Assembly (NCBI RefSeq): GCF_963921235.1
Contig: NC_086097.1
Span: 152,088,001 to 152,152,000, forward strand
Direction of reading: 5' to 3'
Length of the DNA stretch: 64,000 nt
Source: Mobula hypostoma
Taxonomy: Eukaryota
In this document: piece by piece, positions 17,215 through 61,813 of the stretch
How the letters are laid out: each line of letters starts with the position of its first letter
Numbering within the stretch: the stretch's first letter is position 1
The notes under the pieces: generated by a model
What the model was told of the DNA's origin: nothing
The model's input: only the letters and a program-made list of their open reading frames with translations
Database searches by the model: none
Program-made: the position numbers and the translations under genes

Positions 17215-18655
17215 TATGATGGATACCTAACCATCAGCTTGAGGTCTGGATCATTGATCCAGTGACATGAGTTCAAATCTCAGAATGCTAAAGGAGAATT
17301 TATGTAAAACAAATAAACAGATAAAACAAATAAATCTGAAGTTAATAAACAGTACCTATGAATTTACCAGTGTTTATAATCATCCTTAATTTCTAATGTG
17401 TTTTTAGGGAAGGAAGCCTGCCTTGCTTACCTGGTCTGGCATATGTGTGACTCAACAGTCAACAATACCAGCAACTGTTATTGGACTACAATTCAGCATT
17501 CAACATCATAATACCCCCAGGCTTGACAAGAAGCTCAGAAACTTTGGCCTTCACCCTGCCTTGTGCAGCTGGATCCTGGATGGTCTGCAGGTGGTAATAG
17601 TGGGCTCCCTCACCTCTGCCCCTCTGACCCTCAACACAAGAGCTCCTCCTGGCTGTGACCTAAGCCCCCTCCTTTACTCCCTGTATACCCATGACTGTGT
17701 CGCCACCCACAGCTCTAATCTGCTAATTAAATTTGCAGATGATACTACCTTGATTGGCGTTATCTCAAATAATAACAAGGCAGCCTACAGAGAAGAAGTC
17801 ATCTCCCTGACACAGTGGTGTCAAGAAAACGACCTCTCCCTCAACGTCGCAAAAACAAAGGAGCTGGTTGTGGATTACAGGAGGAACAGATACAGGATCA
17901 CCCCTATTGGCATCAATGGATCTGGGGTCGAGAGGGTGAACAGCTTTTCAGTTCCTTGGTATACACATCACTGAGGATCTCACTTGGTCTGTACATTCCG
18001 GCTGTGTGGTGAAAAAAGCGCAAAAGCCTATCTTTCACTTCAGAGGTTGAAGAAGTTTGGCATGAGTGCCCAAATCCTAAGGACTTTCTACAGGGGCACA
18101 ATTGAGAGCATCCTAACTGGCTGTATCACTGCCTTGTATTAGAACTGTGCTTCCTCTGCAGAGGGTGGTGCAGACAGCATATTGCTTCTGTGGATGTGAA
18201 CTTCCTGCTATTCAGGACATTTACAGCAACAGGTGCATAAAAAGGGCACAAAGGATCATTGGGGACCCGAGTCTCCCCAACCACAAACAGCTCCAGCCGC
18301 TACCATCCAGGAAACGGTACCGCAGCATTAAAGCCAGGACCAACAGGCTCCAGGACAGCTTCTTCTACTAGGCCATCAGACTGATTAATTCACGCCGATA
18401 GTAATTCTTAGCTATATTGACTGGTCTGTTGTATATCTTACTGTACATACTATTTGTTACACATTACTATAATTTGCATATTGCACATTCAGACAGAGAC
18501 ATCACGTAAAGATTTTTACTCCTCATGTATGTGAAGGATGTAAGAAATAAAGTCAACTGAATTGAATTCAATTCATCTCTAAAGTGCTTCCCTTGTCCAG
18601 GACATATTAAGGATGGACAATGGAGACTTGCCTGCCATGTCCACATTTGTGAAGG
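17215..18655 (+). mobile_element. Old tRNA-derived SINE (17215-17470 plus tail 18575-18655), split by a Rex/Babar insertion
   Basis: B-box gagttcaaatc at ~17269; tttagggaaggaag...ttacctggtctggcatatgtgtgactc; tail attaaggatggacaat...ccacatttgtgaa resumes after the LINE. Confidence 0.55.
17480..18575 (+). mobile_element. Rex1/Babar LINE, 5'-truncated
   Basis: ORF 17423-17974 (LSPLLYSLYTHDC, KFADDTT, LNVAKTKELVVDYRR) and 18147-18371; tail aataaagtcaactgaattgaattcaattca. Confidence 0.9.
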
Positions 18656-19650
18656 GTACTGGGATTGAAATGACTGGTATCAAACCTGATTTAGCTTGTC
18701 ATTTATTATCTGGGCAGAAGTGGGTTATCACGGCAGCAGTCTCCCTTCCTCTACCTTCACCTTTTCACTAAGTGTTTGTTTTCTCAGTACTGGCAGCCTG
18801 TTATCTGTGATATCTAATCATTTGACCATAACTGTCTATCCCAACAGAAACCTGGGAAATGTCAGAAAACATGTGATCTGCCTGCTTTCTGTGTGTCCTT
18901 GTTGAAAAGAATCTGAAGAAAGCTACCTCTTTCCATTTCCCTTAACCTTTGGGTGTTGACAACATGACATTCACCTCACCCTTAACAATGTTCTTGCAGC
19001 TTTCTCCTAACTCCCAGATTACAGCATTGCTCATTCCTGCTTCTCTTTCAATCACATAATTTTTTATGGAAACCTTAGTCTATAGCTCACATTTTAATTT
19101 TTGACAGTAATTTCAATTCTGAGTGACACTGTAAAGTAGAGATACAAAGTGCCTATTGAATACTGAACCCTATTTCCCTTACATCAGACATTAATGGATG
19201 AAAAAACCTATCCACTTAGTGGCCAATCTAATACTGTTCTATTGTCAGCACTTCAAGCGAACTTCTCTGTGAACAAATACTAAAAGAGATACCTGGCATC
19301 TCTTCTGAGTATTTGTAGTTCTTCCTTCCCCTCTTGTACAGTTGTGAAATTTATTTTCAGACTTGATGCTTTAAGCAACCTCTGCAAATTGCACTCTCCA
19401 TCATTAGATTACAAACCTCAGACATTTATAATTGGCCAAAATGCATGACCAGTTAGTGGTAGTAACCGTTCCTGACTTCCATACCTACAAACAGCAGTGA
19501 GGAGGTCAGGGAGCTATTGGAGGTCGGTTGTATGCTCACCTGGCTTCTCTTTCCACCTCAGCGTTAAATCCATGGGCGTTCTCGAAGTTACAGACTCAAG
19601 AAAAGTGGCCTTGTTCATTTGAATTAGACAGTTTATCTTCATTTAAGAGT

Positions 19651-25564: not shown

Positions 25565-25851
25565 TCCCCTCCCCCTCTCTTTCTTCTAAGGCCTTCTGTC
25601 CCATGATAATCCCCCTTCTCTAGCCTTGTATCCCTTTTGCCAATCAACTTTCAAGCTCTTATATTCATCCCTCCCCCTCCTGTCTTTTCCTATCATTTCA
25701 GGTCTCCCCCCTCCCCCTCCCAGTTTCAAATCTCTTACTATCTCTTTTTTCCATTAGTCCTGATGAAGGGTCTCAACCCAAAACGTCGACTGTACTTCTT
25801 CCTATAGATGCTGCCTGGCCTGCTGCGTTCACCAGGATTTTGTGTGTGTTA
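25565..25851 (+). mobile_element. Penelope-like element pLTR fragment with degenerate hammerhead motif
   Basis: Similar to 61268-61503; agtc-ctgatga-agggtctcaaccc-Aaaacgtc-gact at 25756-25791 (GAAA changed to AAAA). Confidence 0.8.
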
Positions 25852-26127
25852 CTTGCTTTTTACTTGGCAGGTTTTGTTAAAATCAACATTACTGATTAAT
25901 ACTCTGACTGGGTTTTAAATAATTTGTGCTTCTTAACCATGCAGGGATTTAAACTGAGAAGACCTTCAGTTTGAACTTCATAGTCTTCATTACGTTCAGT
26001 CATCTTCTGAAATACAGTGTGCATGATATTGTGTAAAGGAGTCCCACCACATATTACACTAATATTGTGAAGAAAATCACAGCATCTTCACTTGGAATTT
26101 GACTGATTATCATTACATACTAATGGG

Positions 26128-26580
26128 AAACACAAGAGACTACAGATGCTGAAATACAGAACTACTGTAAAAACAAAATACTGGAGGAACTCAGTGGGTC
26201 AGGCAGTATCTGTGGAGGGAAATGGACAGTCAACACTTCCAGTTGAGACCCTTCATTCAGAATGAATATCCTCTGTTGTACTTCTGTAGCAGAGAGCTTG
26301 CCAGTATAAGGAGATGAAGGATCAAATGCTTCCATGCTGGATCCAGGTGTAGATAGGAAAGGGGAGAGTGGAAAAAGTGACAAGAGGCTGGGAGATGGTA
26401 GGTGGCGGAAACAAGGGGCTGCAAATGATGTAATTTGATAGGAAAGTAGGGTGGAGCATGGAAACAAATAAGAGAGATGGGATAAGAAGATGGACAGAGG
26501 GGACCCATGAGGATTGTGTGGATGATGAGCAGATAGAGTAACTAGAGGTGGGGAACAAGACAGGAAGATTGGGGGCTGGG
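26128..26580 (-). mobile_element. Older Penelope-like pLTR fragment
   Basis: cagatgctg...gaggaactcagtgggtcaggcagtatctgtggaggg...gagacccttcat, homologous to the left arm of 60954-61506. Confidence 0.7.
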
Positions 26581-60420: not shown

Positions 60421-61048
60421 AAGGCATTAAGCTCATTTGGGAGTGAAACCTTGTTACTTCATATGTCTTTTGGCTTTACTTTCTAGGTAAGAGAATTCAA
60501 GCCCTGTTACAGCTGCTGAGCATCCTGCACATGTGTAGTGACTTTCTGGAGATCATACTAGAACCTCTTGTATCTTACTTGGTCGCCAGACCTGAACACC
60601 ACTGATCTGGCCCTCAGCAGACTGCGGATCTCTTAGCTCATCCTGGGCTTCTGCTGGGGGAAGATTCTAAATGATTTGGTGGGGACCTACTTTATAATGT
60701 CTGTGACACCGTGGTGTATCTGTGCCGAATATTTCTGGAGATGAAAGAATGAAGGAATAGTGAACAATGTGAAAGGAAGAGATAGTGTAAATCTCCAATA
60801 AATGTGATGAAACTTCTGAGTTTTGTCACAGAACAAGAAGAAATACCAATAATGTCATCATTGTAAAAGAAAAAATATGTTTTAAATTTGACAAGAATAG
60901 GAGGCAGCAAATGGTTCTACAGAAGTTGGAGAAACTGAGGAGTAAAATGTACTCAACAGGAATTCTGCAGATGCTGGAAATTCAAGCAACATACATCAAA
61001 GTTGCTGGTGAACGCAGCAGGCCAGGCAGCATCTGTAGGAAGAGGTGC

Positions 61049-61084
61049 AGTCGACGTTTCAGGCCGAGACCCTTCGTCAGGACT
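61049..61084 (-). ncRNA. Minimal type I hammerhead ribozyme motif (Penelope-associated)
   Basis: Minus strand: agtc-CTGACGA-agggtctcggcct-GAAA-cg-TC-gact. Confidence 0.8.
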
Positions 61085-61405
61085 AACTGAAGGAAGAGTG
61101 AGTAAGGGATTTGAAAGTTGGAGGGGGAGGGGGAGATCCAAAATGGTAGGAGAAGACAGGAGGGGGAGGGATGGAGCCAAGAGCTGGACAGGTGATTGGC
61201 AAAATGGGGATACGAGAGGATCATGGGACAGGAGGTCCGGGAAGAAAGACAAGGAGGAGGGGGTGGGTGATCCTCTCGTATCCCCTTTTACCTATCACTT
61301 GTCTAGCTCTTGGCTCTATCCCTCCCCCTCCTGTCTTCTCCTATCATTTTGGATCTCCCCCTCCCCCTCCAACTTTCAAATCCCTTACTCACTCTTCCTT
61401 CAGTT

Positions 61406-61441
61406 AGTCCTGACGAAGGGTCTCGGCCTGAAACGTCGACT
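61406..61441 (+). ncRNA. Minimal type I hammerhead ribozyme motif (Penelope-associated)
   Basis: Stem I agtc(61406-09)/gact(61438-41); core CTGACGA 61410-16; stem II agg/cct; GAAA 61430-33; palindromic ACGT in place of stem III; predicted cut after C61437. Confidence 0.8.
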
Positions 61442-61544
61442 GCACCTCTTCCTACAGATGCTGCCTGACCTGCTGCGTTCACCAGCAACTTTGATGTGTG
61501 TTGTAATAAAATGTACTATTTTTTTGGGATTTATGGGCCACAAA

Positions 61545-61813
61545 TTATTTTATTTATTAAGATACAGCATTATAACACTTTCGGCTCTTCAAGCCACAGC
61601 AATTTACTGATTTAACCGTAGTCTAATCAAGGGACAATGTACAATCACCAATTAACCTACAAAACAGAATATCTCTAGACGGTGAGAGGAACCTGTCACA
61701 CCCAGAGTAAACCCACGTGCACTCGGGAAGAAATGTATAAACTTGCTTATAGAGGATCCTAGAACTGAACTCCAGATTCCGTGGCGGCCCCTCCGTGGCG
61801 GCCCCACCGTGCC
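61545..61813 (-). mobile_element. V-SINE
   Basis: (TTTA)n tail; cacccagagtaaacccacgtg antisense V-domain; head has a local duplication of ccgtggcggcccc. Confidence 0.7.

What the first reader, a model, noticed from the sequence alone, without database searches (positions are those of the whole stretch)
60943..61517. Penelope fold-back insertion with an intact hammerhead motif on each strand
Seen: perfect 11-bp TSD, ~236-bp inverted arms, 44-bp loop, a one-sided 33-nt extension, and an intact CUGAcGA...GAAAcgUC core in both arms. Known: Penelope-like elements carry minimal hammerheads in pLTRs, often form inverted structures, and such minimal motifs with a palindromic stem III are thought to cleave as dimers. 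Inferred: read-through in either direction gives an RNA with one ribozyme plus its exact antisense, so self-cleavage would compete with a long dsRNA hairpin (ADAR/Dicer substrate), a possible self-silencing configuration.
Basis: partly seen in the sequence, partly recalled or inferred. Interest (0 to 1): 0.7.

Follow-up and report, generated by a model that had tools for sequence, protein, structure and literature searches.

The report
Ordinary head-to-head Penelope stub
This 575-base DNA hairpin is a real but ordinary leftover of a very abundant repeat that is most likely a Penelope-like jumping gene of a ray, laid down in a pattern already in print, and its two tiny ribozyme motifs are predicted to be masked in any RNA read through it.

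Summary
The anatomy is confirmed: 11-bp direct repeat, arms of 237 and 236 bp, 44-bp loop, 33-nt one-sided tail, a minimal hammerhead core in each arm. Both outer junctions lie in DNA contigs of two species; the centre joint was not bridged. The layout is published for Penelope-like elements, including the tail, opposite-strand hammerhead pairs and siRNA from inverted copies.

Three corrections. (1) In either direction the antisense arm is made first, so the ribozyme is predicted to be paired as it emerges; there is no real competition. (2) The conserved G10.1-C11.1 pair is G·U in both arms. (3) The arms differ at 9 places, 3 of them alleles shared with other family copies, and the centre shows no microhomology. 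This favours two cDNAs joined head to head over a snap-back, on weak single-locus evidence. There is no A-to-G editing scar. Transcription of the locus and a link to an RT/GIY-YIG frame were not shown. The scan has reported this kind of insertion many times, in this genome and at least 12 others. Low interest.

The parts
60943..60953 (+). left copy of 11-bp direct repeat (putative target-site duplication, 9 of 11 A/T)
   Evidence: single-copy flank-junction contigs in two species
60954..60986 (-). 33-nt one-sided tail; 60954 is a common end of family copies
   Evidence: loose ends before 60954 in 248, 214 and 190 contigs of X1, X5, X6
60987..61223 (-). left arm: pLTR-type repeat, hammerhead (sense) strand on -
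61053..61080 (-). minimal type I hammerhead core of the left arm; predicted cut between 61053 and 61052
61224..61267 (-). 44-bp loop: further family sequence belonging to the left copy, ending in the family's G-rich (sense C-rich) tract
   Evidence: family depth runs on to about 61262-61267; aligns with the 25.6-kb copy
61268..61503 (+). right arm: inverted, tail-less, more 5'-truncated copy
61404..61442 (+). minimal type I hammerhead: stem I 61405-61409 with 61438-61442, core 61410-61416, extra A 61417, stem II 61418-61429 closed by G·U, GAAA, palindromic ACGU in place of stem III, predicted cut after C61437
   Evidence: sequence; fold evaluation; features compared with PMC4209133
61504..61506 (+). 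3 extra bases (TAA) that match neither the tail nor the left flank
61507..61517 (+). right copy of 11-bp direct repeat

Best explanation
This is a short, non-coding, head-to-head pair of ends of a high-copy repeat, likely left by one integration of a Penelope-like retrotransposon in which the enzyme would have cut both DNA strands about 11 bases apart and started copying from each cut end. One end would have started at the outer RT start (giving the 33-nt tail) and the other at the inner start (no tail). The two cDNAs stopped after 314 and 236 bases and were likely joined at their truncated ends without homology; the loop is simply the 44 bases by which the left copy ran further. The two templates may have been different pLTR copies (two RNAs, or two units of one tandem RNA). 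The insertion predates the split of two related species and has decayed since. It encodes nothing. In any read-through RNA the antisense arm comes first and is predicted to mask the hammerhead, so such RNA would be plain dsRNA. Shown: anatomy, presence in two species, high-copy family, allele sharing. Inferred: PLE membership, two-ended priming, end joining, masking.
For: Layout equals the published one: inverted 5'-truncated copy plus a 30-40 bp tail at one end (PMC8557442 passages); inverted pLTR, 31-bp tail and 9-10 bp TSD (PMC3846280 passages); opposite-strand hammerhead pairs 100-700 bp apart (PMC4209133). The Anolis PLE protein cuts and extends both strands of an AT-rich target in vitro, and its two RT starts bound the tail (PMC11167929). 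Family 3' ends: 60954 is a frequent end; the 25.6-kb copy ends near the tail-less end and the 26.2-kb relic carries a tail-like end. Summed contig depth in X1 is 0.57-8.7 million over the element against 15-90 in the unique flank bins (not a copy number). Of the 6 arm differences within 61150-61223, 3 are alleles shared with other family copies (61173 A 22%/21%, 61197 A 40%/29%, 1-base deletion at 61205 8%/5% of depth in X1/X5); chance 0.008-0.04 under two rough post-hoc models. The left copy's end (GGGGTGGG) cannot pair with the bases just inside the loop, and family sequence beyond it does not continue TGA (loose ends), so there is no snap-back primer. 14 of the 15 joints shown (of 1287) link left arm to right arm at other positions, which I read as inverted junctions of other copies.
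Against: No RT/GIY-YIG frame was linked to this repeat. Both arms share a base at 61035/61455 that only about 22-26% of family depth carries, which fits one source as well as two related sources. 9 differences (1.9% per arm) can also be reached by age alone: flanks of species A and B differ by 25 of 1423. Family shares are depth sums of short contigs passing an 85-90% filter, not copy counts, and linkage of the three alleles was not seen. Later ectopic gene conversion would give the same pattern. PMC3846280 (Discussion) favours self-priming for inverted junctions with palindromes. Earlier scan notes report loci where one RNA seems copied twice (not tested here). No empty site was seen.
Confidence: 0.62

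Rival explanations
1. Same PLE stub, but made from one template: a single cDNA (or one RNA copied twice) folded back or self-primed to give identical arms, which then diverged by mutation or by gene conversion from other copies.
For: Self-priming is proposed for head-to-head Penelope junctions (PMC3846280). The arms are identical across the hammerhead and share a minority allele at 61035/61455. Total divergence is compatible with age.
Against: No pairing of the left end inside the loop and no palindrome at the apex. 3 of 6 inner differences match family alleles. Differences crowd towards the loop (KS p=0.03).
Confidence: 0.27
2. One reading: the locus is read through, and the RNA switches between hammerhead cleavage and a long hairpin that feeds ADAR/Dicer and silences the family.
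For: A 236-bp, 96% paired hairpin would be a dsRNA substrate if transcribed. siRNAs match inverted regions of rearranged Penelope copies in transformed D. melanogaster (PMC3681739 passage).
Against: The antisense arm precedes the ribozyme on both strands; core paired >0.99. Even a lone arm forms stems I and II with probability <=0.01. Published minimal PLE hammerheads show no monomer activity and low dimer activity, and the Anolis one needs its protein. Polarised against family alleles, only 1 of 8 substitutions (61146) is clearly A-to-G on one strand. The same review says such siRNAs do not silence Penelope efficiently. Nothing sets this copy apart from the rest of the family.
Confidence: 0.05
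3. The interior (arm lengths and loop) is mis-assembled although the insertion is real.
For: Long near-perfect palindromes are error-prone in assemblies, and complex PLE insertions are known to trouble them.
Against: The arms differ at 9 places, which a read-folding artefact would not give. Both outer junctions, in inverted orientation, are in contigs of two species.
Confidence: 0.03
4. A non-autonomous unit (MITE-like or retrozyme-like) that moves as a whole hairpin.
For: Inverted ends, a short duplication, no coding capacity.
Against: The ends are asymmetric (33-nt tail). Arm-to-arm joints of other copies fall at many other positions, and none of the 15 shown is this one. Retrozymes are same-strand tandem units (preprint 10.64898/2026.07.22.740005).
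Confidence: 0.03

Closest known systems
Complex insertions of endonuclease-bearing Penelope-like elements (Craig et al. 2021, PMC8557442, passages; Arkhipova et al. 2013, PMC3846280, passages and Discussion)
   Same: Head-to-head inverted 5'-truncated pLTR copy, 30-40 bp tail at one end only, short TSD, AT-rich target.
   Different: No ORF remains here; TSD 11 bp against 8-10 bp in the rotifer examples; a 44-bp asymmetric loop instead of a palindromic or overlapping apex; clade not determined.
[quoted passage not shown]
   Same: Type I, short stem I, extra nucleotide between 9 and 10.1, palindromic remnant of stem III; opposite-strand pairs 100-700 bp apart are mentioned there.
   Different: The G10.1-C11.1 pair called highly conserved there is G·U in both arms (C in only 21-25% of family depth in X1/X5).
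Poseidon_Ac of Anolis (Frangieh et al. 2024, PMC11167929, main text read, parts 1-2 of 4)
   Same: Two 3' ends a tail-length apart downstream of the hammerhead; both-strand cutting and extension would explain two outward-facing 3' ends.
   Different: That work is in vitro and does not show formation of the inverted junction or a TSD; no sequence relationship was tested here.
Animal non-LTR retrozymes (preprint 10.64898/2026.07.22.740005, part 1 of 5 and passages)
   Same: Non-coding, PLE-derived, type I hammerhead.
   Different: Retrozymes are same-orientation tandem units; here the two motifs are on opposite strands and cannot share one RNA.

Membership tests
EN+ Penelope-like element insertion | ORF with RT and GIY-YIG endonuclease linked to this pLTR | tested here: inconclusive
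   None in the stub; no genome held; protein searches gave only two Mobula predicted proteins that include this repeat or nothing; pattern scans found no contig.
EN+ Penelope-like element insertion | pLTR carrying a minimal hammerhead | tested here: met
   compared
EN+ Penelope-like element insertion | adjacent inverted 5'-truncated copy, head to head | tested here: met
   outer junctions in two species
EN+ Penelope-like element insertion | 30-40 bp tail at one end only | tested here: met
   33 nt; 60954 is a family end
EN+ Penelope-like element insertion | short TSD at an AT-rich target | tested here: inconclusive
   Perfect 11-mer, 9 of 11 A/T, but no empty site: both species laid carry the insertion.
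minimal PLE hammerhead | core C3 U4 G5 A6 G8 A9, G12 A13 A14, A15.1, U16.1, H17 | tested here: met
   both arms
minimal PLE hammerhead | unpaired nucleotide between 9 and 10.1; palindromic stem III remnant | tested here: met
   A61417; ACGU at 61433-61436
minimal PLE hammerhead | G10.1-C11.1 closing pair of stem II | tested here: not met
   G61418·U61429 (or A-U in the other register)
minimal PLE hammerhead | self-cleavage as a dimer or with protein | not testable with these tools
   needs an assay
Rfam hammerhead families | match to a covariance model | tested here: not met
   0 of 11 hits at E<=1 are hammerheads
non-LTR retrozyme | same-strand tandem units each with a hammerhead | tested here: not met
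   the two cores are on opposite strands
ADAR-edited retrotransposed hairpin | one-strand excess of derived A-to-G | tested here: not met
   Of 8 substitutions, 1 is derived A-to-G (61146); at 61186, 61191, 61200 and 61022 the left-arm base is the family base, so the change is C-to-T or G-to-A in the right arm.
miRNA precursor | Rfam family score | tested here: not met
   all MIR hits are below their gathering scores and reflect generic pairing

The most novel reading that the evidence does not exclude
The two arms record two different template RNAs used in one integration, and the minimal hammerhead serves less to cut than to pair two element RNAs through its palindromic stem III, delivering one template to each protomer of a dimeric RT-endonuclease at the two cut ends. 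Head-to-head stubs with mismatched subfamily alleles would be the genomic footprint.
Probability: 0.07. Interest if true: 0.6.

Novelty: already known. Interest (0 to 1): 0.12.

Why it matters
This locus is one old, non-coding copy of a family present in very many copies, and every structural feature has a published counterpart. Its value is as one data point on an open question, how PLEs make inverted arms and a one-sided tail. If arms with different family alleles prove general, two templates and two priming events per integration would follow, which a genome-wide count and the existing in vitro system can test. The self-silencing idea would matter only if this locus were shown to be transcribed and edited or diced.

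Tried and rejected
No whole genome was held, so no genome-wide count, full-length element or paralogue haplotypes. Rfam: no hammerhead; MIR hits are generic hairpin matches below threshold. Unconstrained folding of four fragments gave no hammerhead fold and z-scores near 0; a two-strand fold of the 39-nt motif gave an extended duplex, not the double-hammerhead form, so it is uninformative. Expression: no RNA holder listed. The runs guessed to be RNA hold family sequence (X11, X13; X18 is marked probably DNA), and X11 had no cover in the flank bins 60684-60747 and 61516-61579; neither is evidence about this locus. Centre joint: depth 73 (X1) and 7 (X5) at 61268-61273, none at 61274-61284, no bridging contig listed; my reference held only 17 bases beyond the joint and a hole proves nothing. 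Link to an RT/EN frame: searches gave none. Host gene: 205 of 555 stop-to-stop frames (those of 55 aa or more outside self-repeats) plus 3 frames over the element were scanned against Pfam; hits were a LINE endonuclease, a Tc3-type transposase, a UBA-like stretch at 18583-18768 just under cut-off with no homologue found, and two weak hits, so intronic or intergenic is unknown. ADAR scar: rejected. Literature: 'Penelope + pLTR + twin priming' gave 0 papers; 'Penelope + elasmobranch + retrotransposon' gave 4 listings, none on this family by title. Lunse et al. on dimer cleavage was seen only as a citation in PMC6765202; one search fetched an unrelated paper. Supplements were not read, including those of the bioRxiv preprint, which may list the chondrichthyan families.

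Full report
Observation. A hammerhead core lies at 61410-61437 on + and 61080-61053 on -. The 3' ends of both copies face outward, so the pair is head to head. Rfam finds no hammerhead among its 11 hits; the MIR hits are generic and below threshold.

Context. The window is rich in decayed LINE-like frames (one endonuclease hit). The only two protein hits of the element's longest frame are predicted Mobula proteins that contain a stretch of this repeat, so the host is probably a ray. No genome is held. A second, single copy lies at 25566-25855 (79% identity) and an older relic with a decayed motif near 26130-26580. No host exon was identified near the element, so whether it is read through is unknown.

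Is it real? Contigs of public runs cover both flank junctions in organism A (no differences) and organism B (5 of 382 and 14 of 488 other letters) at single-copy depth. The inverted layout is therefore real and older than the split of the two species, whose flanks differ by 25 of 1423. No empty site was seen and the centre joint was not bridged. Summed depth over the element is four to five orders of magnitude above the unique flanks; the tool warns that this is no copy number, but it shows a very abundant family. Position 60954 is a common family end. The loop is family sequence that runs out in a G-rich tract.

The hammerhead. All core nucleotides are present, with the extra A after position 9 and the palindromic ACGU described for minimal PLE hammerheads (PMC4209133). 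The G10.1-C11.1 pair, called highly conserved there, is G·U in both arms; C is carried by only 21-25% of family depth in X1/X5, so this looks inherited rather than local decay. That paper found no monomer cleavage and low dimer cleavage for the motif it tested. The Anolis PLE hammerhead cleaves only with its protein and is dispensable for insertion in vitro (PMC11167929).

On + the left arm (antisense) is transcribed before the ribozyme; on - the right arm is. The full hairpin folds at -505 and -486 kcal/mol with the core paired at >0.99, against -6 to -7 kcal/mol for the ribozyme stems. RNA cut off at 61420, 61445 or 61460 is already fully paired, and a lone arm forms stems I and II with probability <=0.01. 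These are equilibrium models, but the geometry leaves little room for competition: read-through RNA would be plain dsRNA. That inverted Penelope copies yield siRNA is reported for Drosophila, together with the statement that these do not silence the element efficiently (PMC3681739 passages). Polarising the arm differences with family alleles gives one clear A-to-G (61146) of 8; the others are mostly C-to-T or G-to-A, so there is no editing scar.

How it formed. The layout is the published PLE signature: an inverted 5'-truncated copy and a 30-40 bp tail at one end (PMC8557442), with 8-10 bp TSDs in rotifer examples (PMC3846280), and opposite-strand hammerhead pairs. The Anolis enzyme cuts and extends both strands and has two RT starts that bound the tail. 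I infer that each cut end primed one cDNA, one at each start, and that the truncated ends were joined. Two things favour this over snap-back for this copy: no pairing partner for the left copy's end, and 3 of the 6 inner differences being alleles found in other family copies (22%, 40% and 8% of depth in X1; chance 0.008-0.04 under rough post-hoc models). Against it: the arms share a minority base at 61035/61455; age alone can give 9 differences; gene conversion is not excluded; the shares are contig-depth sums; linkage was not seen; and self-priming is the published proposal. A search for 'Penelope, pLTR, twin priming' found no paper, which does not show that the idea is unpublished.

Family-level side result. 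Of 1287 joints, 15 were shown; 14 join the left arm to the right arm, which I read as inverted junctions of other copies, and 11 of those 14 have one end within 61075-61088 or its mirror, the 5' foot of the hammerhead (the window was drawn after seeing the data, and only the best-supported joints are shown). This copy is not of that type: both arms run well past the hammerhead.

Earlier notes of the scan. 16 findings in at least 13 genomes hold the same words, and several in this genome describe the same family, two-ended priming and the hammerhead-foot hotspot. They are unchecked AI notes and are not counted as support. My two-template reading was written before I read them; the editing test was prompted by one of them.

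Verdict. Observation confirmed, interpretation partly supported. It works like, and very probably is, a truncated EN+ Penelope-like insertion; the defining ORF could not be tied to it here. Already known as a kind; interest 0.12.

Noticed in passing
family copies laid on window:60300-62200: 11 of 14 shown arm-to-arm joints have an end at 61075-61088 or its mirror, just 5' of the hammerhead core and not at the predicted cut site; this may mark the 5' end of a short element RNA. Only 15 of 1287 joints were shown.
   Followed up: partly
window:60943-60953: The left repeat resembles the consensus of letters that other family copies carry before 60954 (AAAA-C/T-G-CAAA; agreement only about 0.47-0.49), but not in its last bases: either an A-rich target preference or partial primer-template pairing.
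   Followed up: no
window:61504-61506: Three extra bases (TAA) between the right arm and the repeat; 11+3 equals 14, the upper TSD length that earlier scan notes give for this family, but they match the left flank (GAG) at only 1 of 3.
   Followed up: no
window:61299-61317: Three C-to-T differences in the right arm within 19 bases, all at the second C of CC; one of them (61317) is also a common family allele.
   Followed up: no
window:25566-25855 (+): Single tail-less copy of the same family, 79% identical, hammerhead G12 changed to A; its 5' end falls in the same C-rich tract where the left copy of the finding ends.
   Followed up: partly
window:26130-26580 (-): Older related pLTR relic with a decayed hammerhead-like motif at 26259 and a tail-like end.
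   Followed up: partly
P0001, P0002: Two predicted Mobula proteins contain about 40 residues translated from this repeat across the hammerhead, apparently exonised or mis-predicted exons.
   Followed up: no
window:18583-18768 (+): UBA-like Pfam hit (PF22566, E 9.6e-06, just under cut-off) with no homologue found; perhaps a decayed gene fragment.
   Followed up: partly
window:36498-36809 (-): Tc1/Tc3-type transposase fragment (PF01498).
   Followed up: no
window:61778-61805: A 14-bp tandem duplication present in organism A and absent from the organism B contigs.
   Followed up: no
window:40863-42416 (-): A 517-aa open frame of a LINE-type reverse transcriptase, similar to several broken frames in the window (family label recalled, not tested).
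   Followed up: no
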